DNA from: Minisyncoccota bacterium
GTDB taxonomy: Bacteria; Patescibacteriota; Minisyncoccia; Phycocordibacterales; JBAZVT01
Assembly: GCA_041660745.1 (NCBI GenBank)
Contig: JBAZVT010000003.1
Location: 1,880 to 65,879, forward strand
DNA length: 64,000 nt
Direction: 5' to 3'
In this document: piece after piece, positions 14,826 through 45,704 of the stretch
Layout: each line of letters starts with the position of its first letter
Numbering within the stretch: position 1 is the first letter of the stretch
The notes under the pieces: model-generated
Told to the model about the DNA's origin: nothing
Seen by the model: only the letters and a program-made list of their open reading frames with translations
Databases searched by the model: none
Program-made: the position numbers and the translations under genes

Positions 14826-15365
14826 ATGAAAAAAGCATCATATATTTTCTGTTGTGTGCTGGTGTATTCTGGCTTCTATACTGCACTGATAGTATCGGCA
14901 GCTTCTTCCTCTGTGGTTAATTCAATCACGATTACTTCAGAAACTGGGGGTAATACTGTATTGGGCGGTGAAGAAAGTCGGGGTACTTCTAATACACATA
15001 TCCAGGCAAAGACAATTATAGATGGTGTTGTAGTAGAGGATATTAATCAGAACTATTCTTCTACGAGTCCGGTTAATTTTAAAGAAACATACAATCAGAA
15101 TATTGGATCGGGAAATGAAACGGAGACAGTGAAAACAATTATAAAAGTTCAGGCGCAGACAGGTCAAAGTTCATTGGTGGAAGATTTTAATAAAAAGAAA
15201 GCGGCGACATCAACAGCCACAACGTCTCTCGCACGTCCTGTGAAGACAACGCAAGATGGTCACGTTGCGGCTTCGAGTTCAGTATTATTAGCCGAAGGGG
15301 GTTTGAAAGCGCGAGGCCTTCTTCAACAATTTATATCATATGTATTTTCAATCTTTCGTTTCTAA
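14826..15365 (+). CDS. Secreted hypothetical protein with one TGxN half-repeat
   Basis: Lies in ORF 14781..15365, with the likely start at MKKASYIF. Has a signal/anchor segment, and NSITITSETGGNTV matches the first repeat motif of the flanking genes. Confidence 0.65.
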   Translation: MKKASYIFCCVLVYSGFYTALIVSAASSSVVNSITITSETGGNTVLGGEESRGTSNTHIQAKTIIDGVVVEDINQNYSSTSPVNFKETYNQNIGSGNETETVKTIIKVQAQTGQSSLVEDFNKKKAATSTATTSLARPVKTTQDGHVAASSSVLLAEGGLKARGLLQQFISYVFSIFRF

Positions 15366-18090
15366 ACATATTGTTTCACAAGGCAGAGGGATTGTTTCCT
15401 TCTGTATAATTTTTTCTTTGCTCTTGGCCCAAGGTGGTGCGGTTATTGTTGCAGGGGCACAAACACCTGATTCTAGTTTAGGTACGACAACAGAGTCTAG
15501 CACCATAACAGAAGCTGCTATTGTGCCAGAGGAAAATGATTCTGTGACGTCTATTACGACTGGTGACGCATCTGCGGAGAGTAGTGTGGAAACTGGAACA
15601 AATACCAATCTTATTTCTGAGGGGCAGAGTACATCTTCCTCGGACACCCTAATGGCAACGAGTACACACGATTCTTTATTAGAAGTGGCTACGACTAGCG
15701 CAACTACTTCTTCCGATACCACTACCACAGGCACAAGCACGTCTCTAGTACCTGATGAGGGTACAGAGGTTATTGTGGACACAACAAGTACGTCCACTAT
15801 TGTAAATAATGCCACAACTACTGCAAATACAGGTGTAAATGAAATTCAAAACGCAACATCGACCACGGCAACAAGCACTGCCACAAGTACAGCGGTTATC
15901 GATACTGGTGATGCGGCGGCTAGTACAAATATAATTAATGTTGCCAATGTTAATGTGTTTGATTCTAATGGAATGATCATGCTTCTTAATAGTTTATCTG
16001 GTATGACGGGTAATGTTGATTTGCGAGATGCACTCTCGGGAATTACTTTTGAATCATTCTGTGGCGAGGGGTGTGATGGAACGAGTACACCTTTATCTGC
16101 TCTCATTTCAAATAATAGTACATCAACAATTGATAATAACATTGTTGTTGGTGCTCAAACGGGGAATAACGGTATTTCTGGACCAGGCACTGACGGAACT
16201 ATTATGACTGGGGATGCGTATGCGGCAGCCAATGTGGTAAATATGGCAAATACAAATATTGTTGATTCAAATTATCTCCTCTTTGTTTTTAATGGGCTGG
16301 GAAATATGATTAATGGTGATTTTATTTTGCCGAGCGCAGGATTCTTCTCTAACTTTTTTTCTGGAAGTTCAGGAAGTAGTATGTCGGGGCAGTCTACTCC
16401 CGCAGTCTTATCTTCCACAACTGATCTAGATATACAAAATGAGAATTCGTCGATAATCAATAATTCCGTTGATGTTCATGCGGGCACGGGGGATAATAGC
16501 GTGTCGTCTGAAATGGGATCTACAACAGCTTCTAGTAGTATTGTAACGGGAGACGCACAGTCTGGAACAAATATTTTTAACGAGACTAATAGTAATCTTG
16601 TCGGCGGCGGATCGTTCATGGTACTTTTTAGAGTTTTTGGAAAATGGAGTGGAAATGTACTAAATACTCCAGACGGAATTCAATGGAAAGAAACACCTCA
16701 TGGGGTTGAACTTGTTGGAGATGTTCCTTCTGTTCTTGATTCAAGCGAGACAGATTCATCTGATCAAAATATATCAATTTCTAACAACAATAGTTCAAGT
16801 GTCACAAACAATATAGAGGTGTATGCGTTGACCGGAGATAATAAAATTACGGACAAAACTGGAAACTCTGAGATTGAGACTGGAGATGCATATGCAACAG
16901 CGAACGTAGTCAATATTACTAATACCAATATTGTTGGACGTAACTGGATTCTCGCAATCATTAATATCTTTGGTGATTGGGGAGGGAATATTTCTTTTGG
17001 TCAACCTGATTTGTGGGTTGCGGGGGAAGTGGAATCCCCTGGAAAGATTACGCGTGGTTCAGAACTAAAATACACATTTACTATTACAAACAAAGGCGAT
17101 GCTCCCGCGCATGATGTTGTGTTAAAGAATGTTTTTGATAGTCCATACGTGTACTTTGGAGAGAGATCAACTGATGTTCCTAATAATATGTCTGACTGGA
17201 ATATTGGAACATTGGCACCACAACAAACTGTTACTGTAGAAAAAGTGGCAACTGTAGACACGGGCTTGCCACGAGGGTCAACTCCCGTCTCGTCTGAAAT
17301 TTCTGTGCAGGGGAATGAAACTGATGCAAATACAGTAGATAATAGTGACGTTATATCATTTGTAGCTTCCGGATCTACGTCTTCAAGGGGTGGGAGTAGA
17401 CCTCGAGAAACAAAAATGCCATTACCAATACTTCTTGTTTCTACGACAAATGATGCGCTGACGACGCCTCTTATGGCTACTGCAAGTAGTAGTGTAAATT
17501 ATACTATTACAATAGAAAACAATGGGGATACTTCGTATAATTCCATCCTTACAAACACACTCAAGGATAGTTCTGGGGGTATTGTTAGTCAGGAACAGTG
17601 GAATTTGGAAATGATTGCTCCGCGTGAAGAAGTTTCTGTTTCATATACAGCTATCTTTGGCACAAGTACACCCCCCGGAGTGTATACCAATTATGCTCAG
17701 GTGGTCGCGTCCTCTTCGGAACAACTTGGGCAGTCTGTTGTCTCAAATGTGGCGACGAGTGCTGTGGTTATTCTTAGCCCAGAGGTCTTTAATGCAGGAT
17801 TTTCCTTTGCCACAACCACCCCTGTTCTTTCTACAGAGAACATTGAGCCACTTGCAGGGGCTATTTCAGACTCAAACATAGTTGATTCGTCCCCAGACGC
17901 TACTGCTGTGGAAAAAATAGATACTATAGTAAACAATCAGGTTGCAAATGTGGGAAGCGCGTGGAATTTTGTAGTGAGTCCATATTGGCTCATTTTCCCA
18001 ATACTTGGACTGATATCACTGGCATTATTAAAAAAGAAGGGTAGTGTGAGACAGTTTGCGAGGATGAGAAATAAGTTTACGGTTTGGTAA
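15340..18090 (+). CDS. 916-aa surface protein: Thr/Ser-rich region, at least 5 TGDA repeats, two DUF11-like Ig-fold repeats, and a C-terminal hydrophobic anchor
   Basis: N-terminal signal segment. Repeats are ITTGDASAESSVETGTNTNL, IDTGDAAASTNIINVANVNV, IMTGDAYAAANVVNMANTNI, IVTGDAQSGTNIFNETNSNL and IETGDAYATANVVNITNTNI. The DUF11-like segments are LKYTFTITNKGDAPAHDVVLKNVF and VNYTITIENNGDTSYNSILTNTL. The C-terminus is WLIFPILGLISLALLKKKG. Confidence 0.85.
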   Translation: MYFQSFVSKHIVSQGRGIVSFCIIFSLLLAQGGAVIVAGAQTPDSSLGTTTESSTITEAAIVPEENDSVTSITTGDASAESSVETGTNTNLISEGQSTSSSDTLMATSTHDSLLEVATTSATTSSDTTTTGTSTSLVPDEGTEVIVDTTSTSTIVNNATTTANTGVNEIQNATSTTATSTATSTAVIDTGDAAASTNIINVANVNVFDSNGMIMLLNSLSGMTGNVDLRDALSGITFESFCGEGCDGTSTPLSALISNNSTSTIDNNIVVGAQTGNNGISGPGTDGTIMTGDAYAAANVVNMANTNIVDSNYLLFVFNGLGNMINGDFILPSAGFFSNFFSGSSGSSMSGQSTPAVLSSTTDLDIQNENSSIINNSVDVHAGTGDNSVSSEMGSTTASSSIVTGDAQSGTNIFNETNSNLVGGGSFMVLFRVFGKWSGNVLNTPDGIQWKETPHGVELVGDVPSVLDSSETDSSDQNISISNNNSSSVTNNIEVYALTGDNKITDKTGNSEIETGDAYATANVVNITNTNIVGRNWILAIINIFGDWGGNISFGQPDLWVAGEVESPGKITRGSELKYTFTITNKGDAPAHDVVLKNVFDSPYVYFGERSTDVPNNMSDWNIGTLAPQQTVTVEKVATVDTGLPRGSTPVSSEISVQGNETDANTVDNSDVISFVASGSTSSRGGSRPRETKMPLPILLVSTTNDALTTPLMATASSSVNYTITIENNGDTSYNSILTNTLKDSSGGIVSQEQWNLEMIAPREEVSVSYTAIFGTSTPPGVYTNYAQVVASSSEQLGQSVVSNVATSAVVILSPEVFNAGFSFATTTPVLSTENIEPLAGAISDSNIVDSSPDATAVEKIDTIVNNQVANVGSAWNFVVSPYWLIFPILGLISLALLKKKGSVRQFARMRNKFTVW

Positions 18091-18241
18091 ATATCGTTCA
18101 GAATTTCTAAAAAAGAGTACGTGTAAAATTCTACTGAATTTTCACTCGGTCTCGGCTACCCGCCTGCGAAGCCTCATTTTTAGAAAATCCTCACTCCAGT
18201 AGAATAAGGTGTCCTTCGGACTCTAGGATTAGGGTACATAG

Positions 18242-18274
18242 AAAAGCCGCCTGAGTACAGGCGGCTTTTCTTGT
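18242..18274 (+). terminator. Terminator after the 916-aa gene
   Basis: AAAAGCCGCCTG pairs with CAGGCGGCTTTT (loop AGTA), followed by CTTG. Confidence 0.75.
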
Positions 18275-18317
18275 ATGTAGAGGAGGAAATGCCTTATTTT
18301 AAGCAAAATAACACATA

Positions 18318-18346
18318 TTGACGGAAGTACTCAAAAGGTGTATAAT
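18318..18346 (+). promoter_or_regulatory. Near-consensus sigma-70 promoter (TTGACG, 17 nt, TATAAT)
   Basis: TTGACG at 18318-18323 and TATAAT at 18341-18346, 72 nt upstream of the ATG at 18418. That ATG is preceded by the SD AAAGGAGG. Confidence 0.6.
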
Positions 18347-18417
18347 AGTATGTAGAGTGACTGAAGTCACAAACCGACTTCCGCCGGGTTGCGGATTGAA
18401 ATAAAAAGGAGGTCGTT

Positions 18418-18945
18418 ATGACCAAGGTTCAGGGTAATTGCGTTATTTTCTTGCTTGTGTCATTGATCATTGTTGGTTTTTGTATGCTTCCGGTGAACAA
18501 GCGTGAAAAACTGCTTCAGAATCAGTCAACAATGGCGCCGGCGGCAATGTCTCAAAACACCAGAGTCTTTCTGGATTACGTCGCTGGCAAGACAATCTCC
18601 AAGACTGACGTGGACGAAGCCTTTTACATAAGGGGTTCGGCTGGTTGGCTCGACACGGAGAAGATTCTTCGTGTGGCGAATGATCTCAAGGTTCCATGGG
18701 CTCAAGTCCATGATACGCTGGTTGTTCTCAACGAGAACTCGACAGTCATGTACATCGGTTCACAGGACAAGATTCTCGCCAAGTTTCGGGCGACCACTCA
18801 GCCAACCACAGCGCCGACGGTTCAGGTGGAGGCGACAAGTCAGGGTTCGTTGCCACCGGCAAGTGTCGTCGTCTATGGATGCTGGGCTCGCAACTATGTG
18901 GAGTCGGCGTACCAGGCGACTCATGATATGGGTCGGTGGGAATAA
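18418..18945 (+). CDS. Hypothetical membrane-anchored protein in a high-G+C islet
   Basis: Strong SD (AAAGGAGGTCGTTATG), an N-terminal TM segment (CVIFLLVSLIIVGFCML), and a Thr/Pro linker. No family recognised. Composition differs clearly from the flanks. Confidence 0.65.
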   Translation: MTKVQGNCVIFLLVSLIIVGFCMLPVNKREKLLQNQSTMAPAAMSQNTRVFLDYVAGKTISKTDVDEAFYIRGSAGWLDTEKILRVANDLKVPWAQVHDTLVVLNENSTVMYIGSQDKILAKFRATTQPTTAPTVQVEATSQGSLPPASVVVYGCWARNYVESAYQATHDMGRWE

Positions 18946-19003
18946 GGAAGATTACGTTTGGTTCTAGTGCCCGTGAACAGCAGTTCGCGGGCATAGTTTT
19001 TAT

Positions 19004-19037
19004 AAAAAAACCGGCTGATGGCAGCCGGTTTTGTTTT
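19004..19037. terminator. Bidirectional terminator between convergent genes
   Basis: An A7 run, then CCGGCTG paired with CAGCCGG, then TTTTGTTTTT. A second hairpin, GCCCG..CGGGC, lies at 18968-18992. Confidence 0.75.
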
Positions 19038-19924
19038 TAATCAAAAAACTTTATGAGATAGGAGTCGATTTCTCGTTGATCCATATCGTAAAAATTCTTT
19101 TTATCTCGGTAGAGTTTTTTGGCGAGACTCTCTCCGACATATCTCCAATGCCAAGGTTCATATTGATAATAAGCATTGTTCTGCGGGTATGAAAGTATAA
19201 AACCATATTTATAGGCATTATCTTGAAGCCATTTGTATGCAATCGTTCCATCAAATTGAGAATAATCTGAACCTAATTTGGCGGTGGTGAGATCAACTGT
19301 TGTTCCGAGTTGGTGTTCAGAATATCCCTGGTCTGCAGAGAATTTATTCGCGCCCGCACCATAGATCACTTTGTAGCTCGAGTTTAGTGAAGTCTGTTCT
19401 CCAAAAGAGCGGTATGCAGAGATGATTCGTAAGTCAGTCCCTGTAGCTTGTACGTCCTCTAGCATTTCTTTTAGGTGGGGCCAAACACCAGATAGTATTT
19501 CAAGGGGGCGTTCTTTGTTGTTGAGATATTCGGTGGAGATTAGCCGCAGTCTTTTGGGTGTGTAATGTTCGTTAAGAAAAAATACTTTTGAATATTTTTG
19601 TAATAATTGTTCGTCTATTGCGTTAAGTTTTTCTAACTCACTAACAGAGCTAGAAATATCTTCAATCTGTTCATTAAAAAGATTGTTCTTCTCTTGTTCG
19701 GTAGCAAGGGCCTCGCTTAGATTAAACTTATCGGTTTCAACTTGGGTCAGTTTTTCGCTTAGGTCTCTATTGAGCTGAATTTCTGCTTGAAGCGCTTGGT
19801 GAGTGTTGCGTGCGATCAAATAGTAGCGGACTCCTCCCACAGCACATAACACAGTAATCCCAATAGTTATAGGGAACACAAAATGCTTATATTTTGAAAG
19901 GGATTCTGAAAAAGATGGGTTCAT
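19037..19924 (-). CDS. VanY/M15B-family D-alanyl-D-alanine carboxypeptidase with N-terminal TM segment and coiled coil
   Basis: Motifs ISAYRSFGEQ, SEHQLGTTVDL and EPWHWRYVG (zinc ligands of peptidase M15). Confidence 0.85.
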   Translation of the reverse strand: MNPSFSESLSKYKHFVFPITIGITVLCAVGGVRYYLIARNTHQALQAEIQLNRDLSEKLTQVETDKFNLSEALATEQEKNNLFNEQIEDISSSVSELEKLNAIDEQLLQKYSKVFFLNEHYTPKRLRLISTEYLNNKERPLEILSGVWPHLKEMLEDVQATGTDLRIISAYRSFGEQTSLNSSYKVIYGAGANKFSADQGYSEHQLGTTVDLTTAKLGSDYSQFDGTIAYKWLQDNAYKYGFILSYPQNNAYYQYEPWHWRYVGESLAKKLYRDKKNFYDMDQREIDSYLIKFFD

Positions 19925-19961
19925 GGGTAAGATTATACCATAAATACTGCTGCTTGTGGTT

Positions 19962-20165: not shown

Positions 20166-21134
20166 TTAACTTAATATAATATTAAATATATAGCCCGTCG
20201 CAATAATCCCTGTAGCGACTATGCCAGCAAAAATGAGAATAAGTTGGGTTTTCATAACCTTCTTTAATATGATAAATTCGGGTAATGATAGTGCGGTGAC
20301 TGACATCATGAACGCCAACGCTGTCCCTACACTGACTCCCTTTTCCAAAAGAACACTCACAAGAGGAATGATGCCTGCCGCATTTGAATATAGTGGTATC
20401 CCTATAATTACTGCAACAGGGACGCTGTACCAGTGAGATGAGCCAATAATAGCAGTCAGGGCACTCGCTGGAACATAGCCATGAATAAGTGCTCCCAATC
20501 CGATGCCGACCAAGAGATAGGGCCAGACTTTTTTGATAATACCCAGTGTGTATTCGGAAGCAAAGTAGGCTCGTTTGGAGACGCTTATTTTTGTTTCTTC
20601 AAAATGAGCTGAAATTTTTTGTTTAAACACAAAGTCTTCGATGAGGTTTTCTGGTTTTAGGCGTCCAATGATAATACCACTCAGTATCGCGATTATTAAT
20701 CCTGTGATGACATAGAGGAGTGCAATTTTCCAACCAAACATTCCCAATAGAAGCACAAGAGCGACTTCGTTAATCATTGGAGATGATATGAGAAAAGAAA
20801 ATGTTACTCCAAGTGGCACCCCTGCCTGTATAAAACCTAGGAAAAGGGGAATAGCACTACAAGTACAGAATGGAGTAATGATTCCAAATAAAGACGCCAA
20901 GATATTACCAACGAATTCATTTTTTCTTACGAGAATACTACGTATTTTTTCCGCGGGTATAAAAGTTCTTACAAAAGAAATGGTGAAAATGATAATGACG
21001 AGCAGGAGAAGTATTTTGATTGTGTCATATATGAAGAAGTTCACAACGTGTGCAATGTGTGTTTCTGTCTGGATGTTTAAAATAGTAAAAGTTAGAAAGT
21101 CTGCAACAATTTTAATAGGATAAAATATGTCCAT
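20166..21134 (-). CDS. Predicted permease (YraQ/ArsP-like, PF03773-type)
   Basis: 8-10 TM segments. The Cys motif PFCTCSAIPLF is typical of this permease family, and the gene is the last in an ArsR-regulated redox operon. Confidence 0.75.
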   Translation of the reverse strand: MDIFYPIKIVADFLTFTILNIQTETHIAHVVNFFIYDTIKILLLLVIIIFTISFVRTFIPAEKIRSILVRKNEFVGNILASLFGIITPFCTCSAIPLFLGFIQAGVPLGVTFSFLISSPMINEVALVLLLGMFGWKIALLYVITGLIIAILSGIIIGRLKPENLIEDFVFKQKISAHFEETKISVSKRAYFASEYTLGIIKKVWPYLLVGIGLGALIHGYVPASALTAIIGSSHWYSVPVAVIIGIPLYSNAAGIIPLVSVLLEKGVSVGTALAFMMSVTALSLPEFIILKKVMKTQLILIFAGIVATGIIATGYIFNIILS

Positions 21135-21146
21135 GTAAATAAATTA

Positions 21147-21389
21147 TTAAGCAGACTGTTGTAAAATTATATTTTTTATTTTCTCCATATCCGCCGTTGC
21201 TCCAACCAAGACAACCTTATCGTTAATGACAAGCACGGGGCTCTGTAAAAGTCCCATTGCCACTATTTTCTGAATATCGCTTATATATTCGATTTCTGCC
21301 GTAATACCCATATCTCTTACGGTAGTTTGTACCAACTCAAACATTTTTTTACATGTAGGACATCCTGAACCAAGCACTTGGATTTTCAC
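21147..21389 (-). CDS. Thioredoxin-fold redox-active disulfide protein (CxxC)
   Basis: MKIQVLGSGCPTCKKM is the N-terminal CPTC motif of the small 'redox-active disulfide protein 2' family. Confidence 0.8.
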   Translation of the reverse strand: MKIQVLGSGCPTCKKMFELVQTTVRDMGITAEIEYISDIQKIVAMGLLQSPVLVINDKVVLVGATADMEKIKNIILQQSA

Positions 21390-21943: not shown

Positions 21944-22022
21944 GTTTGAATGATATACCTAATAGAAAAAGATGTCAACAAAGTAAAAACTCACACAATC
22001 TACAAATTGTGTGAGTTTTTTA

Positions 22023-25356: not shown

Positions 25357-25497
25357 ATAGATAGATTATAGCAAGTAATCTATCTGTTGTGCCATGATAT
25401 AACTGTGAATAATAGAGCCTGTTTACAATCTAATGTTTGAAACAAAAAAGACGAGCGAGTTTTGGAAAACTCGCTCGTCTTTTTTGGTATGTAATAA

Positions 25498-25792: not shown

Positions 25793-26392
25793 TTACCCAT
25801 GCTTGACTTGCGGAGTGAGGAATCTTTGCCCGCTCGCTTTTTTCTGACGCATCCACTTCGTGATCATCCGGTCGTAGTCCGAGGTAGCTGCAAAGACCTT
25901 GATCACCAACCTCTCGCGCTGGTCTTCCGAGATAGCGCCGGTTACAGTCAGTGATGCAACCACCCACTCATAATCGGTAGGATCAATGACCGGGATTGTC
26001 GAGATCCCGTTCTTGGACGCTGCGCGGATGAGCGAGGGGCCGCCGATATCAATCTCCTCAATGTCAGGTTTGTTCTTGAAGTCGTACAGATTGACCACGA
26101 CGAGATCAATCAGGTCGATGTGGTGCTCGACGAGCGCCGCAAGGTGTGCGGGAATGGCTCGTGCGGCGAGTATGCCGCCGAAGATGTTTGGATGGAGTGT
26201 CTTGACACGGCCGTCCAGCATTTCGGGAAAGCCCGTGACCTGCTCAATCGGAGTTACCTCGATGCCGACTGCCCGCAGTGCTTTCGCCGTCCCGCCGGTA
26301 GAGATGAACTCCCAACCTAGGGTGGCGAGCGGAAGAAGTTTTTCCAACCCACTCTTGTCCGTAACCGACACCAGTGCTCTTGGCATTGCCAT
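25793..26392 (-). CDS. Stand-alone IMP cyclohydrolase (MGS-like N-terminal domain of PurH) in a high-G+C islet
   Basis: ALVSVTDKSGL...ISTGGTAKAL...GRVKTLHPNIFGGILA...VVVNLYDF...IDIGGPSLIRAASKN is the PurH IMPCH domain. The ORF stops after the inter-domain linker, and no AICAR transformylase domain follows. SD is AAGGAG. Confidence 0.85.
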   Translation of the reverse strand: MAMPRALVSVTDKSGLEKLLPLATLGWEFISTGGTAKALRAVGIEVTPIEQVTGFPEMLDGRVKTLHPNIFGGILAARAIPAHLAALVEHHIDLIDLVVVNLYDFKNKPDIEEIDIGGPSLIRAASKNGISTIPVIDPTDYEWVVASLTVTGAISEDQRERLVIKVFAATSDYDRMITKWMRQKKASGQRFLTPQVKHG

Positions 26393-26469: not shown

Positions 26470-27575
26470 ATTTTTTATGTCAAGATTTTGTACTCGTCCA
26501 CCACATATGAGACTCTGACGCTGGTAATGTAGACACAATATACCTCAAAGGAGATACAAGACCAAGCGACCAATGAGGACGCCTAGTGTTGTACCAAAGT
26601 AACCAATTAATGAGAGCTTCATTAAAAGCATCAATGTCATGAGCTAAAAGTTTTCTGTTTCTGTTAACAAAAGCTTCCACAACAGTTCGGTTGAATCGTT
26701 CAACTTCAGCGTTCATTTTTGGCGATCTTGGATATGTGTGAAAATGAACGATGTTGTTCTTTTCAAGCAGAACGTCAAAGTGGTCAGCAAACTCACTACC
26801 ATTGTCTGTTTGCACATGCGTAACAGGAAGTGGTGCAACATGTTTAAACTTCATCATGAAGTCAGCAGATGCTTTTGATGAATGAGAAGTATACGCATAT
26901 GCAAAAGCAAATTTTGATTCGCAATCAATACCAGTGAGCAAATATCTTTTAATACCATCGGTGAAGCGGATGACCGAATCTGCTTTAACTAGTCCTCCTT
27001 CGTGACCTTTAGAACGCAGTTTCTTGCGTTTAACTCTGATTTTCTCTCGAAAGGTATCTGATTTTGCATAGTATGAAAGTTTCGTATATTTTGGAAGTTT
27101 TCCTTGTTTCTTGAGATCATTTAACATTCGACCGACAGTAGATGCGGAGAGATCGGCAACCTTGTCTTCTTTCATGAGTACCGCCAGTTTGTCTTTGGAA
27201 AGTCTTGGATCATTCTGGCGTTCCTTGAGAATGAAATCTTCTACAACTTTTGGGATGACACGTTTTCTTCTTTGTTTAGGAGCAGTACTTTTTTTGTTGA
27301 GAAACTCCAGTTTTCCCATACCATCTCGAAGTTCTTTTTGCCAGCGAAAAAGAGTTGGTCTTGAAATGCCAAAGGCTTCTTTAGTGGCAGTTGTTCCATA
27401 CTTCTCCCAAAACGCTAATATCCTGCACCTTTCTTTTGCGGTTTCGCTAATCATATACTTGAAGCGTATCACACGCTCCCAAGTACTAATGAAGCCCTTT
27501 GTTCCTCTAAATTTATTGAAAATGCGCATATGAAAACTCTAATTAAAGAGTCTCATATGTTTCTGAACTTATGCA
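26470..27575 (-). mobile_element. IS481-like insertion sequence (boundaries uncertain)
   Basis: A single DDE (rve) transposase ORF. The only terminal symmetry found is the 12-bp inverted repeat CATATGAGACTC (26506-26517) / GAGTCTCATATG (27549-27560). No target-site duplication was identified. Confidence 0.6.
26480..27529 (-). CDS. IS481-family transposase (HTH plus integrase-core DDE domain)
   Basis: N-terminal HTH region and an rve core (TGIDCESKF...VQTDNGSEF...NAEVERFNRT...YNTRRPHWSL). Confidence 0.88.
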   Translation of the reverse strand: MRIFNKFRGTKGFISTWERVIRFKYMISETAKERCRILAFWEKYGTTATKEAFGISRPTLFRWQKELRDGMGKLEFLNKKSTAPKQRRKRVIPKVVEDFILKERQNDPRLSKDKLAVLMKEDKVADLSASTVGRMLNDLKKQGKLPKYTKLSYYAKSDTFREKIRVKRKKLRSKGHEGGLVKADSVIRFTDGIKRYLLTGIDCESKFAFAYAYTSHSSKASADFMMKFKHVAPLPVTHVQTDNGSEFADHFDVLLEKNNIVHFHTYPRSPKMNAEVERFNRTVVEAFVNRNRKLLAHDIDAFNEALINWLLWYNTRRPHWSLGLVSPLRYIVSTLPASESHMWWTSTKS

Positions 27576-37250: not shown

Positions 37251-37360
37251 TTCTGGCGGCTAGCTACTTTCCCCTCCATAAGAGTATCATCACCGCAAGA
37301 GAGCTTAACTTCTGAGTTCGGAATGAGATCAGGTGTATCCCCTCCGCCATACCACCAGAA
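37251..37360 (-). rRNA. rrf: 5S ribosomal RNA
   Basis: The minus strand reads TTCTGGTGGTATGGCGGAGGGGATACACCTGATCTCATTCCGAACTCAGAAGTTAAGC...CCGCCAGAA. This gives helix I pairing and the conserved CCGAAC / AGAAGTTAAGC loop-B/C region. Confidence 0.9.
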
Positions 37361-37498: not shown

Positions 37499-40916
<3,418 letters not shown>

Positions 40917-44403: not shown

Positions 44404-44505
44404 GTGAAAATATATTCGCTAGGCTCGTTATTTTCTACAAAATAAATCGACCCGTAAGGGCCTGATAAAAGTGAGATCTCACATATCAATAGATATGTGA
44501 GTAAA

Positions 44506-44611
44506 CCTCGATAGGCTATTCCAGCAAAGCTGGACGCCCGTCCACCGAAGGTGGATTAGGGACCTGTATTAAAGCGGTTTTCCGCTGCCTATTGTCTTTG
44601 GCCTTACGAGG
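44506..44611 (-). ncRNA. Structured leader RNA upstream of rplJ (candidate L10-leader-type autoregulatory element)
   Basis: On the minus strand, the closing stem CCUCG-UA-AGGC / GCCU-AU-CGAGG encloses three hairpins: GCGG-aaaa-CCGC, CCACC-uucg-GGUGG and CCAGC-uuu-GCUGG. It lies between a putative promoter and rplJ. Confidence 0.3.
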
Positions 44612-44615
44612 TACA

Positions 44616-44643
44616 TATTTACATAAAATAGTTCACTTGTAAA
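44616..44643 (-). promoter_or_regulatory. Putative rplJL promoter (TTTACA, 16 nt, TAAATA)
   Basis: Minus-strand hexamers at 44643-44638 and 44621-44616. Confidence 0.3.
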
Positions 44644-44770: not shown

Positions 44771-45031
44771 CTACTCTTCTTGACCGTTTTCAGGGCAGTC
44801 CGGTTCCAACTCACAAGAGAAGTAGTACCCGAGACAGACTCCAAAGAGAATGAAACCAATCGGTCCCCCAACAACAGTAAGAGCCCTGCCCCAGAAGTCC
44901 GATTCCCTTGGCTCAAGATGACTCCGGAAAAGTCCGAAATCCTGCCAAAGAAATATCAAAACGCTCCAGACAGAACAGCAGGCCCAAAGACATGGAAGCC
45001 ACTGATAAGGATTGTGAAAAAAGGCACTCAT
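44771..45031 (-). CDS. 86-aa hypothetical two-TM protein (high-G+C islet)
   Basis: Internal start of ORF 44771..45271, with SD AAAGGAGA 6 nt upstream. Reads MSAFFHNPYQWLPCLWACCSVWSVLIFLW...GGPIGFILFGVCLGYYF. Confidence 0.5.
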   Translation of the reverse strand: MSAFFHNPYQWLPCLWACCSVWSVLIFLWQDFGLFRSHLEPRESDFWGRALTVVGGPIGFILFGVCLGYYFSCELEPDCPENGQEE

Positions 45032-45077
45032 ACAGCATCTCCTTTCCCGAAAGTTCCTACACAGAAGGCAAGTACGA

Positions 45078-45365
45078 TTACTCCTGCATTGGTTTGTGCA
45101 GTATTCTTTCACGCCTCGCAAGCGCCCCCGCAAAATCGTGAGCACATATTGAGATGGGTCCGAAGAGGACCCTGAATATGTACAGACGCCACGATGCCCA
45201 CGAGAATTTCCCCCGAGAAAGATCTGGGAAGAAAACGAACGCAGCGCCGATTGAGTAGCGCAGCCACGCAAGAACCGCGAGGCCTACAACAACAGCAACG
45301 ATCCCGACGGGTACAACCAGACATTCCCACATAAGAATCTCCTTCCAAAAAATAAACATCCACAT
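45078..45365 (-). CDS. 95-aa hypothetical membrane protein (high-G+C islet)
   Basis: Internal start of ORF 45078..45458, placed after the upstream terminator hairpin, with SD GAGGA. Reads MWMFIFWKEILMWECLVVPVGIVAVVVGLAVLAWL... Confidence 0.45.
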   Translation of the reverse strand: MWMFIFWKEILMWECLVVPVGIVAVVVGLAVLAWLRYSIGAAFVFFPDLSRGKFSWASWRLYIFRVLFGPISICAHDFAGALARRERILHKPMQE

Positions 45366-45405
45366 TCTTTCCTCATCCTTTATACCACACCTCATATCTA
45401 ATATC

Positions 45406-45440
45406 AAAAAGACCCGGGCATGTGTATGCCCGGGTCTTTG
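45406..45440 (-). terminator. GC-rich terminator after the 79-aa ORF
   Basis: AAAGACCCGGGCAT pairs with ATGCCCGGGTCTTT, with a T run on the minus strand. Confidence 0.8.
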
Positions 45441-45464
45441 TCCTAATGATTTGGACAAACTACT

Positions 45465-45704
45465 TCACCCCTGAAACATGTTCGCAAGAGCAATGCGCTG
45501 ACCGACACCGACGTATGGCTTCTGTTCAGAAGCAGGGAAACAACCTGCTAGCGGTGTTCCATACCCCTCGGGACCCCACAACGAACCAGGCTTGTGATAC
45601 CCACGTCCACACGATGCGACAGCCGCCAAGTCGCAAGGAGGCAGGCCACTCACATCTGCCCACGTCAGATCGCTCACCTCAGCAGTAACGTAACCGCCAC
45701 GCAT
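45465..45704 (-). CDS. 79-aa hypothetical soluble protein (high-G+C islet)
   Basis: SD GGAGG 5 nt upstream of the ATG, and its own terminator. Reads MRGGYVTAEVSDLTWADVSGLPPCDLAAV...; no family recognised. Confidence 0.5.
   Translation of the reverse strand: MRGGYVTAEVSDLTWADVSGLPPCDLAAVASCGRGYHKPGSLWGPEGYGTPLAGCFPASEQKPYVGVGQRIALANMFQG

What the first reader, a model, noticed from the sequence alone, without database searches (positions are those of the whole stretch)
18318..19037. High-G+C single-gene expression cassette with textbook promoter, SD and double terminator
The cassette is TTGACG-17 nt-TATAAT (18318-18346), then a 72-nt leader containing the hairpin GTGACTGAAGTCAC, then the SD AAAGGAGG, then a 175-aa ORF with one N-terminal TM segment and a Thr/Pro-rich linker, then two terminators (18968-18992 and 19004-19037).

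I counted 30/60 G+C in line 18541 and 37/60 in line 18781. The adjacent gene body gave 13/60 in line 19561. The protein has no family I recognise.

Together with the islets at 25.8 kb and 45 kb, this gives three foreign-looking high-G+C insertions in 64 kb.
Basis: seen in the sequence. Interest (0 to 1): 0.5.

Follow-up and report, generated by a model that had tools for sequence, protein, structure and literature searches.

The report
Orphan membrane-protein gene inserted between genes
A self-contained, GC-rich gene for an unknown small membrane-anchored protein lies in about 0.9 kb of extra DNA between two conserved cell-envelope genes of an uncultured Paceibacteria (CPR) bacterium; this is an ordinary lineage-specific accessory gene, but it and four other GC-rich genes are the only genes in the window with a classical ribosome-binding site.

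Summary
The window comes from a Candidatus Paceibacterota genome bin (41% GC).

ORF 18418-18945 (175 aa) has GC3 of 0.585, against 0.339 +/- 0.042 for 47 host genes. No real homologue turned up in any library searched.

One syntenic relative was found (L086; neighbouring proteins 70-95% identical). There the convergent DUF11/CLIPPER and VanY genes are 40 bp apart and share one bidirectional hairpin. The extra DNA in the window is 18091-19003:
- a structured spacer ending in a new terminator for the DUF11 gene
- the promoter, leader and SD
- ORF175 and its own terminator

Best reading: a lineage-specific, probably horizontally acquired, autonomous "moron-like" transcription unit encoding an orphan membrane-tethered protein.

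Two caveats. Only one relative is available, so a loss in L086 is not excluded. The 25.8-kb islet (stand-alone IMP cyclohydrolase) is orthologous in both genomes and has kept its high GC3 although its synonymous sites are nearly saturated, so high GC3 is not proof of recent transfer.

About 53 host genes lack an SD and many look leaderless. Only the five GC-rich genes have one.

Verdict: a real feature, a new member of a known kind, of modest interest.

The parts
15340..18090 (+). Left flank (not part of the insertion). A 916-aa DUF11/CLIPPER surface protein gene with a C-terminal hydrophobic anchor, orthologous to the 862-aa gene in L086.
   Evidence: Pfam PF01345. 69-70% aa identity to the L086 CLIPPER gene.
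18091..19003 (+). The 913 bp of DNA present in the window but absent from the syntenic DUF11/VanY junction of relative L086. This is the inferred insertion.
   Evidence: In the junction alignment, window 18033-18083 aligns to L086 16728-16678 and window 19004-19100 aligns to L086 16661-16567. In L086 the two stop codons are 40 bp apart.
18104..18272 (+). Structured spacer of host-like G+C. It ends in a perfect 14-bp-stem hairpin (18240-18271, AGAAAAGCCGCCTG/CAGGCGGCTTTTCT) that now serves as terminator of the DUF11 gene. Its origin is unknown.
   Evidence: Folding z=-4.99 against shuffles. Inverted repeat I4. No Rfam family reaches threshold. No other copy in the window or in the loci held at that point, L001-L081.
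18318..18346 (+). Sigma-70-type promoter TTGACG-17-TATAAT.
   Evidence: 11 of 12 matches. One of four such matches in 64 kb, three of them placed before transcription units.
18357..18370 (+). Small hairpin GTGAC-TGAA-GTCAC at about +4 to +17 of the predicted transcript. It may be a 5'-end stabiliser, which is inference only.
   Evidence: Present in the sequence and in the minimum-free-energy fold. The leader as a whole is not more stable than shuffles.
18405..18412 (+). Shine-Dalgarno AAAGGAGG, 5 nt before the start codon.
   Evidence: Sequence. A strong SD occurs only at the five GC-rich genes and at none of 53 host genes (Fisher p=2e-7).
18418..18945 (+). ORF175, an orphan 175-aa protein (19.4 kDa). 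It has an N-terminal hydrophobic helix (about residues 8-26), a domain of about 90 aa, a Thr/Pro-rich linker and a 30-aa tail.
   Evidence: GC3 0.585. Only a self-match in 5.8 billion and 1.84 billion protein libraries. AlphaFold2 pLDDT of 44 and 40.
18967..19000 (+). The cassette's own intrinsic terminator: a 12-bp stem, 4-nt loop and a T-run.
19004..19037 (.). Ancestral bidirectional terminator shared by the convergent VanY and DUF11 genes. An A-run precedes it and a T-run follows it. It is not part of the insertion.
   Evidence: 24 of 28 positions identical with the single hairpin at the L086 junction, 16634-16661. Detected as a terminator.
19037..19924 (-). Right flank (not part of the insertion). 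VanY/M15 D-Ala-D-Ala carboxypeptidase gene with a leaderless-type start (ggTATAATcttacccATG).
   Evidence: Pfam PF02557, E=3e-32. 75% aa identity to L086 VanY. Upstream sequence.

Best explanation
ORF175 and its signals form an autonomous single-gene transcription unit. It was added to the chromosome of a low-GC Paceibacteria (CPR) bacterium whose own genes largely lack an SD. The insertion site lies between the stop codon of a DUF11/CLIPPER surface-protein gene and the bidirectional terminator that this gene used to share with the convergent VanY gene.

Shown by sequence and comparison:
- The 913 bp at 18091-19003 are extra relative to the one syntenic relative.
- The unit has a near-consensus sigma-70 promoter, a leader of about 64-71 nt, a strong SD and its own terminator.
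- Its synonymous-site composition and its SD-led start both differ from every host gene in the window.

Inferred:
- The DNA came by horizontal transfer from an unsampled, more GC-rich, SD-using source, either a phage or mobile element or another bacterium. The mechanism was illegitimate (non-site-specific) recombination, because no integrase, terminal inverted repeats or target duplication are present.
- The gene is transcribed independently of its neighbours and insulated from the convergent VanY gene by two terminators.
- The product is a 19-kDa protein held in the cytoplasmic membrane by its N-terminal helix.
- It acts as an accessory cell-envelope protein. By analogy with phage morons, and given the envelope-gene neighbourhood, surface interaction or exclusion of phages or foreign DNA are the likeliest roles. 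This functional assignment is weak, about 0.2-0.3.
For: - Synteny: L086 carries MGS, DUF6938, EamA, GH, ArsR, Grx, tm55 and VanY, then the convergent CLIPPER, h198 and h218 genes, at 61-95% aa identity. Only 40 bp and one hairpin lie between VanY and CLIPPER. Twelve further contigs from other runs are listed as similar in gene content to L086, but were not inspected.
- Composition: GC3 z=5.9 against 47 host genes. The codon log-likelihood favours the 'other islets' model by +0.18 bit per codon, while host genes score -0.26 +/- 0.08 with a maximum of -0.02.
- Start type: a strong SD is found at 5 of 5 GC-rich genes and 0 of 53 host genes. The same pattern holds in L086, at 3 of 3 against 1 of 20.
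- Promoter and terminators.
- Orphan status.
- Not an obvious assembly artefact: a Logan contig of 14.9 kb spans both junctions identically.
- Chromosomal context: 23S and 5S rRNA and rplJ/rplL are in the window.
Against: - Only one relative has the conserved junction, so gain here and loss in L086 cannot be polarised with an outgroup.
- The MGS islet shows that high GC3 can persist in this lineage despite saturated synonymous divergence. Composition is therefore not proof of recent foreign origin.
- No mobility signature is present. No terminal inverted repeats bracket the 18091/19003 boundaries, no recombinase gene is adjacent, and there is no tRNA in the 64 kb.
- With no homologues there is no conservation evidence that the ORF is translated. 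AlphaFold2 confidence is low.
- Membrane topology is ambiguous: flank charge is +1 on the N side and +2 on the C side.
- The first 230 nt of the extra DNA have host-like G+C.
Confidence: 0.62

Rival explanations
1. ORF175 is an older member of a GC-rich, SD-led gene class that this lineage maintains. It was present in the common ancestor at this junction and was cleanly deleted in the L086 lineage.
For: - The MGS gene shows that GC-rich, SD-led genes can be inherited vertically and keep GC4 of about 0.75 while 4-fold sites diverge as much as in host genes (identity 0.44 against 0.41-0.47).
- The MGS promoter and leader are conserved between the two genomes.
- Only two genomes are available, so polarity is open.
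Against: - No homologue exists anywhere, including the other Patescibacteria contigs fetched and 1.84 billion cluster representatives.
- A deletion would have had to run exactly from the DUF11 stop codon to the foot of the shared hairpin and restore a compact bidirectional terminator arrangement.
- In the window the DUF11 gene uses a different, downstream terminator (18240-18271). That looks like a secondary arrangement.
Confidence: 0.18
2. The ORF is not a functional gene. It is a piece of foreign or decaying DNA with a chance open frame, or the remnant of a larger element.
For: - There are no homologues, so no evidence of purifying selection.
- AlphaFold2 gives pLDDT of 40-44.
- GC-rich DNA yields long shadow ORFs. 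Ones of 98 aa and 82 aa overlap ORF175.
Against: - The frame fills the space between a near-consensus promoter with an SD at optimal spacing and a strong terminator.
- A stop-free run of 175 codons or more arose in only 0.5% of shuffles.
- The GC1/GC2/GC3 values of 0.54/0.41/0.585 have the ordering expected for coding sequence.
- An N-terminal membrane helix is present.
- The alternative frames have no Pfam match.
Confidence: 0.1
3. Assembly chimera: reads from a more GC-rich organism were joined into the Paceibacteria contig.
For: There is a compositional step inside a metagenome-assembled contig, and the sequence is known from one sample only.
Against: - Two assemblies of the sample, the NCBI genome bin and the Logan contig, agree base for base across both junctions.
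- The segment is only 0.9 kb and is flanked on both sides by collinear orthologous genes.
- The boundaries coincide with functional signals rather than with repeats.
Confidence: 0.04
4. Native core gene whose G+C is dictated by its amino-acid composition.
For: The Thr/Pro/Ala-rich linker raises G+C locally (37/60 in line 18781).
Against: - GC1 and GC2 are within the host range, and the excess is at third positions (0.585 against 0.339 +/- 0.042).
- The gene is absent from the relative.
- It has no homologues.
Confidence: 0.02

Closest known systems
Phage 'morons' (independent transcription units added between conserved genes of related phages; Cumby et al. 2012, PMC3594210)
   Same: It is extra DNA at a syntenic position relative to a related genome. 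Its G+C differs from that of its neighbours, and it has its own promoter and terminator. Its product is a small membrane-associated protein, as with many moron products (the last point from my own knowledge).
   Different: It is not in a phage or prophage. Both flanks are conserved chromosomal cell-envelope genes, no phage protein family was found among the window proteins scanned (ORF175 and four other GC-rich islet genes), and rRNA and ribosomal-protein genes lie nearby.
Individually transferred genes and small genomic islands in Patescibacteria (PMC12455944)
   Same: It is a single accessory gene in a streamlined CPR genome with signs of horizontal origin. That study reports hundreds of such events, most of them between Patescibacteria.
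   Different: No donor or homologue can be identified here. The gene also carries an SD-led start that host genes lack, and that the high-GC Patescibacteria locus I inspected (L089) mostly lacks as well.
Species-specific orphan genes (ORFans) of prokaryotes (e.g. bioRxiv 10.1101/2023.07.17.549306)
   Same: No detectable homologue was found in very large databases. It is short, of unknown function, and plausibly of viral or mobile-element origin.
   Different: The insertion site, its boundaries and the full set of expression signals can be defined precisely here by comparison with a relative.
Integron gene cassettes
   Same: It is a single-ORF unit added to a genome.
   Different: Integron cassettes are normally promoterless, end in an attC site and lie next to an intI integrase. 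This unit has its own promoter, ends in intrinsic terminators and has no adjacent recombinase gene.

Membership tests
Phage moron | Extra DNA relative to related genomes at a conserved position | tested here: met
   913 bp are present in the window and absent at the L086 VanY/CLIPPER junction.
Phage moron | Own promoter and terminator (an independent transcription unit) | tested here: met
   An 11/12 sigma-70 match at 18318-18346 and a terminator at 18967-18994. This is sequence evidence only; transcription was not measured.
Phage moron | Nucleotide composition differs from surrounding genes | tested here: met
   GC3 of 0.585 against 0.339 +/- 0.042.
Phage moron | Located within a phage or prophage genome | tested here: not met
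   The flanks are chromosomal VanY and DUF11 genes, collinear with the relative. ORF175 has no PHROG match. So it works like a moron but is not one in the strict sense.
Genomic islet acquired by horizontal transfer | Atypical codon usage or composition | tested here: met
   Caveat: the MGS gene shows such composition can be maintained long-term.
Genomic islet acquired by horizontal transfer | Patchy presence among close relatives | tested here: met
   It is absent from L086, but only one relative with this junction was found.
Genomic islet acquired by horizontal transfer | Identifiable donor or homologues elsewhere | tested here: not met
   Only a self-match. Nothing in metagenome or viral contigs, phages or plasmids.
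Genomic islet acquired by horizontal transfer | Mobility hallmarks (integrase or transposase, tRNA target, direct repeats) | tested here: not met
   No tRNA in 64 kb. No repeats bracket the boundaries. No ORF with a recombinase match lies next to the unit. The nearest transposase, an IS481-family gene at 26480-27529, is 7.5 kb away.
IS element or MITE | Terminal inverted repeats and target-site duplication at the boundaries | tested here: not met
   The repeat finder on 17900-19300 gives no inverted-repeat pair at about 18091 and 19003. No second copy exists in the window or in the loci held at that point, L001-L081.
Integron cassette | Promoterless ORF followed by an attC site, next to an intI gene | tested here: not met
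   The unit has its own promoter and ends in intrinsic terminators. No attC-like GTTRRRY core was seen by eye in 18946-19036. intI was not searched for systematically.
Any curated protein family (Pfam, NCBIfam, PHROGs, PADLOC, PDB sequences) | Significant profile or sequence match | tested here: not met
   The best hits are E=0.27 (Pfam), 0.13 (PHROG) and 0.85 (PDB), and none for NCBIfam or PADLOC.
Bacterial lipoprotein or cleaved secretory protein | Lipobox [LVI][ASTVI][GAS]C, or an AXA-type signal peptidase site after the hydrophobic region | tested here: not met
   By eye on the sequence, the residues before Cys22 are V-G-F and there is no AXA motif. An uncleaved signal anchor is more likely. 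No dedicated predictor was available.

The most novel reading that the evidence does not exclude
The GC-rich genes of this Paceibacteria lineage are ORF175, the stand-alone IMP cyclohydrolase, the three small ORFs at 45 kb, and h186 and AAA_28 in the relative. They may not be merely un-ameliorated foreign DNA. They could form a distinct class that is actively maintained: each is an autonomous unit with a long leader and a Shine-Dalgarno site, in a genome whose own genes lack an SD and are often leaderless. Their GC-rich synonymous codons would be preserved by selection, or by recurrent replacement from an external pool. ORF175 would be a young member of that class.
Probability: 0.15. Interest if true: 0.6.

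Novelty: new member of a known kind. Interest (0 to 1): 0.3.

Why it matters
By itself this is one more lineage-specific orphan gene in a CPR genome. Such genes are common, and horizontal transfer into Patescibacteria is documented.

Its value is as a cleanly delimited example. The insertion point, the ancestral terminator and the full imported set of expression signals can all be read off. It also shows that a streamlined episymbiont chromosome gains small envelope-associated genes at a junction between convergent genes, without recognisable mobile-element machinery.

The wider context could matter more. In this window SD-led translation starts are confined to the GC-rich genes. One of those genes has kept its GC-rich codons through near-saturating synonymous divergence. 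If that pattern is general, it bears on three questions: how organisms with mostly leaderless genes express foreign genes, how reliable composition-based detection of transfer is in CPR genomes, and whether synonymous composition is under selection there.

Tried and rejected
- Homology for ORF175. The word-indexed search of 5.8 billion proteins returned only the protein itself. The exhaustive phmmer search of 1.84 billion representatives gave four extra hits, all long tandem-repeat proteins where weak local similarity is summed over 5-14 repeats. One is a low-complexity repeat protein and three are Bacteroidota-type Ig/HYR-repeat surface proteins. I rejected all four as spurious.\n- Other libraries. 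Pfam, PHROGs, NCBIfam, PADLOC and PDB sequences gave nothing. Protein and DNA searches of phage and plasmid collections gave nothing. Metagenome and viral contig scans gave nothing.\n- Structure. AlphaFold2 on the full protein and on residues 44-175 gave pLDDT of 44 and 40. That is too low for a fold search, so none was run.\n- Rfam on 17900-19200 gave only sub-threshold matches to terminator-like sRNA and leader families. I rejected them.\n- Synteny through VanY homologues. The 160 loci from GTDB genomes and JGI metagenomes were at most 59% identical, and none had DUF11 next to VanY. The best VanY hits P0007 and P0008 were not syntenic either. The syntenic relative was found only indirectly, through the IMP cyclohydrolase of the 25.8-kb islet.\n- Dinucleotide signatures of the three islets fall within the noise of host fragments of equal length, so they are uninformative.\n- Alternative reading frames in the GC-rich segment have no family match.\n- The islet proteins and the relative's GC-rich genes show no mutual similarity.\n- High-GC Patescibacteria as the donor pool for SD-led genes: genes in L089 (60.6% GC) mostly lack an SD as well, so this is not supported.
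Full report
**Source and setting**

ORF175 is 100% identical to an NCBI protein annotated [quoted passage not shown], on an 80.8-kb contig. A separate Logan assembly of run SRR18595301 gives a 14.9-kb contig (L001) that is identical to the window across the cassette and both flanks.

The window is 41.1% GC. It carries 23S and 5S rRNA, rplJ and rplL and no tRNA. It is therefore chromosomal DNA of a CPR bacterium.

**The observation**

- The promoter TTGACG-17-TATAAT at 18318-18346 scores 11 of 12.
- The number of weaker promoter-like matches in the surrounding 10 kb is no higher than in shuffles.
- Only four matches of 11/12 or better exist in the whole 64 kb. Three are intergenic and correctly placed: before ORF175, before the ArsR operon and 316 nt before 23S rRNA (p=0.01).
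- The SD AAAGGAGG lies 5 nt before the ATG at 18418.
- The ORF is 175 aa, with one hydrophobic segment at about residues 8-26.
- Both terminator hairpins are detected and fold far better than shuffles (z=-6.5).
- The small leader hairpin exists, but the leader is not unusually structured (z=-0.38).
- The three hand counts of G+C reproduce exactly.

**Composition**

The ORF is 51.1% GC. GC1, GC2 and GC3 are 0.54, 0.41 and 0.585. Forty-seven host genes have GC3 of 0.339 +/- 0.042 with a maximum of 0.415, so ORF175 lies 5.9 sd out.

GC1 and GC2 are ordinary. The excess is therefore synonymous, which rules out an explanation from amino-acid content. The best-fitting GC-rich segment is 18535-18994. 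The promoter, the leader and the membrane-helix codons are less GC-rich.

Conditional on amino acids, ORF175's codons fit a model built from the other islets better than the host model, by +0.18 bit per codon. Host genes score -0.26 +/- 0.08 and never exceed -0.02. Shared preferences include TCG, GCG, CTG, CAG, AAG and GTC. Dinucleotide signatures are uninformative at this length.

**Orphan status**

Nothing significant was found in Pfam, PHROGs, NCBIfam, PADLOC or PDB sequences. The 5.8-billion-protein search returned only the protein itself.

The exhaustive search of 1.84 billion representatives added four hits. All are long tandem-repeat proteins whose scores are sums over 5-14 weak stretches, and I regard them as spurious.

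Phage, plasmid, viral-contig and metagenome-contig searches were empty. AlphaFold2 without an alignment gave pLDDT of 44 for the full protein and 40 for the soluble part, so no fold search was justified.

**The relative and the insertion**

VanY-based searches of GTDB genomes and JGI metagenomes gave only relatives at 59% identity or less, without conserved neighbours. The informative relative came from the IMP cyclohydrolase of the 25.8-kb islet.

Its best non-self hit, P0127, lies on a 69-kb Logan contig (L086, 42% GC). That contig carries, in order: MGS, DUF6938 (80% aa identity), EamA (79%), GH (81%), ArsR (86%), Grx (95%), tm55 (81%), VanY (75%), and then on the opposite strand CLIPPER/DUF11 (69-70%), h198 (61%) and h218 (70%). 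Twelve further contigs from other runs are listed as similar in gene content, but were not inspected.

In L086 the VanY and CLIPPER stop codons are 40 bp apart. Between them sits a single hairpin, AAAAACCGGCTG-TAAC-CAGCCGGTTTTT, flanked by an A-run and a T-run.

The junction alignment gives three blocks:
- Window 18033-18083 matches the CLIPPER 3' end.
- Window 19004-19031 matches that hairpin at 24 of 28 positions.
- Window 19034-19100 matches the VanY 3' end.

Two conclusions follow. Window 18091-19003 (913 bp) is extra DNA.

The extra DNA contains four parts:
- A strongly folding spacer of about 170 nt (z=-5), which ends in a perfect 14-bp hairpin at 18240-18271. This hairpin now terminates the DUF11 gene.
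- The promoter, leader and SD.
- ORF175.
- ORF175's own terminator.

No inverted repeats or duplications bracket the boundaries. There is no second copy in the window or in the loci held at that point. No ORF with a recombinase match lies next to the unit.

**A third, independent mark of difference: the type of translation start**

None of about 53 low-GC genes in the window has a GGAG-level SD within 20 nt of its start. That includes rplJ and rplL.

Thirteen of the 53 have a -10 box matching at 5/6 or better that ends 3-15 nt before the start codon, against 7.5% at random positions (p=1e-4). Examples are VanY (ggTATAATcttacccATG) and DUF6938 (gcTATAATctatctatATG). This is the pattern expected for leaderless mRNAs.

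The only genes with a strong SD are the five GC-rich ones: ORF175, the IMP cyclohydrolase and the three small ORFs at 44771-45704 (Fisher p=2e-7). The relative repeats the pattern. Its three GC-rich genes (MGS, h186, AAA_28) have purine-rich SD-like motifs, while host genes have -10 boxes abutting the ATG (p=0.002).

I found no paper in the searchable library that addresses leaderless starts in Patescibacteria.

**Why composition alone is not proof of a recent transfer**

The IMP cyclohydrolase islet is orthologous in the two genomes. This includes a promoter and leader of about 95 nt that is clearly more conserved than the 73% mean column identity of the whole upstream alignment.

At 4-fold sites of conserved residues its identity is 0.44, the same as for the flanking host genes (0.41-0.47). 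It has therefore diverged for as long as they have. Yet its GC4 is 0.74 and 0.76 in the two lineages, against 0.28-0.39 for host genes.

Neutral amelioration should have removed most of that excess. The GC-rich codons are therefore being maintained, or the gene is being replaced repeatedly.

The same gene is also richer in GC3 than its neighbours in high-GC Patescibacteria: 0.893 against 0.772 +/- 0.03 in L089, and 0.741 against 0.576 +/- 0.07 in L091.

At least one islet is old. For ORF175, the independent evidence for lineage-specific gain is the synteny gap plus the complete lack of homologues, not G+C.

**Mechanism (inferred)**

The unit resembles a phage moron. A moron is extra DNA relative to related genomes, with deviating G+C and its own promoter and terminator (PMC3594210). 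This one, however, sits in a chromosome between conserved envelope genes rather than in a prophage.

Individually transferred genes are documented in Patescibacteria (PMC12455944). I infer the following:
- Transcription starts near 18353 from a promoter as good as the rRNA promoter.
- Translation is SD-led.
- Transcription ends at 18967-19000, with the ancestral hairpin as a back-stop against collision with the convergent VanY gene.
- The N-terminal helix inserts the protein into the membrane.

Topology is uncertain, with flank charges of +1 on the N side and +2 on the C side. There is no lipobox or obvious signal peptidase site. The function is unknown. An accessory envelope role, in surface interaction or exclusion, is the best guess and is weakly held.

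**Rivals**

- Loss in L086 of an older gene of the GC-rich class (0.18).
- A non-functional ORF in foreign DNA (0.10). A stop-free run of this length arises in 0.5% of shuffles, and the signals are well placed.
- An assembly chimera (0.04). Two assemblies agree, but read depth was not checked.
- Constraint from amino-acid composition (0.02), contradicted by the GC3 analysis.

**Verdict**

The finding is a new member of a known kind: a lineage-specific, probably acquired orphan gene in a moron-like unit. Its interest is modest. The association of SD-led starts with GC-rich genes in a genome that otherwise lacks SDs, and the non-ameliorating IMP cyclohydrolase, are the parts most worth following up.

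Noticed in passing
whole window; examples 19925-19950 (VanY start), 25357-25380 (DUF6938 start), 21944-21978 (ArsR start): None of about 53 low-GC genes, including rplJ and rplL, has a Shine-Dalgarno site. 13 of the 53 have a good -10 box ending 3-15 nt before the start codon, which is the leaderless-type pattern. A strong SD is found only at the five GC-rich genes. The same pattern holds in relative L086.
   Followed up: partly
window 25793-26392 (-) and its leader up to about 26485; L086 9900-10609: This GC-rich islet is a stand-alone IMP cyclohydrolase (MGS domain plus the N-terminal part of PurH). It is orthologous in the relative, with a conserved promoter and leader of about 95 nt. It keeps GC4 of about 0.75 in both lineages even though its 4-fold sites are as diverged as those of host genes. 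It is also richer in GC3 than its neighbours in high-GC Patescibacteria. The maintained G+C and the conserved leader are unexplained.
   Followed up: partly
window 26480-27529 (-): An IS481-family transposase gene with host-like GC3 (0.334) lies directly upstream of the IMP cyclohydrolase islet. It is absent from that position in L086.
   Followed up: no
window 44771-45704 (-): The third GC-rich islet holds three small orphan ORFs of 79, 84 and 86 aa. By eye, two of them have hydrophobic stretches suggesting membrane proteins. Each has an SD, and two strong terminators are present. The islet lies between a 1263-aa beta-helix/LTD surface-protein gene and the rplJ leader. No family matches were found.
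   Followed up: partly
window 44431-44619 (-): A sub-threshold match to the ribosomal protein L10 leader (RF00557; 31.6 bits against a gathering score of 44; E=0.003) lies upstream of rplJ-rplL. It is probably a divergent CPR version of the leader.
   Followed up: no
window 37507-40906 (-) and 37251-37359 (-): The 23S rRNA match spans 3400 nt against a 2925-position model, so about 475 nt of insertions, possibly introns, are present. 5S follows it. There is no 16S rRNA and no tRNA anywhere in the 64 kb.
   Followed up: no
window 18104-18272 (+): A strongly folding element of about 170 nt (z=-5) lies at the left end of the extra DNA and ends in a perfect bidirectional terminator. It has no Rfam family and no other copy. 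It could be a 3'-UTR structure, a small RNA or a remnant of the donor locus.
   Followed up: partly
L086 7122-9022 (-): The relative has its own GC-rich units with SD-like motifs that are absent from the window: h186 (GC3 0.72, orphan-looking) and an AAA_28 ATPase (GC3 0.58). They lie near the IMP cyclohydrolase gene. The region is a variable hotspot in both genomes.
   Followed up: partly
window 20166-21389 (-) compared with L086 4613-6098: In the window a Trx3-ArsP gene pair sits inside the ArsR-Grx-tm55-VanY gene string. In L086 that string lacks the pair, and a divergent ArsR-Trx3-ArsP set (32-47% identity) lies elsewhere. This is another rearrangement or acquisition in the same neighbourhood.
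   Followed up: no
L035, L049, L056, L063, L107, L126: In several more distant Patescibacteria the IMP cyclohydrolase gene lies immediately downstream of VanY. This points to an older linkage of the two genes.
   Followed up: no
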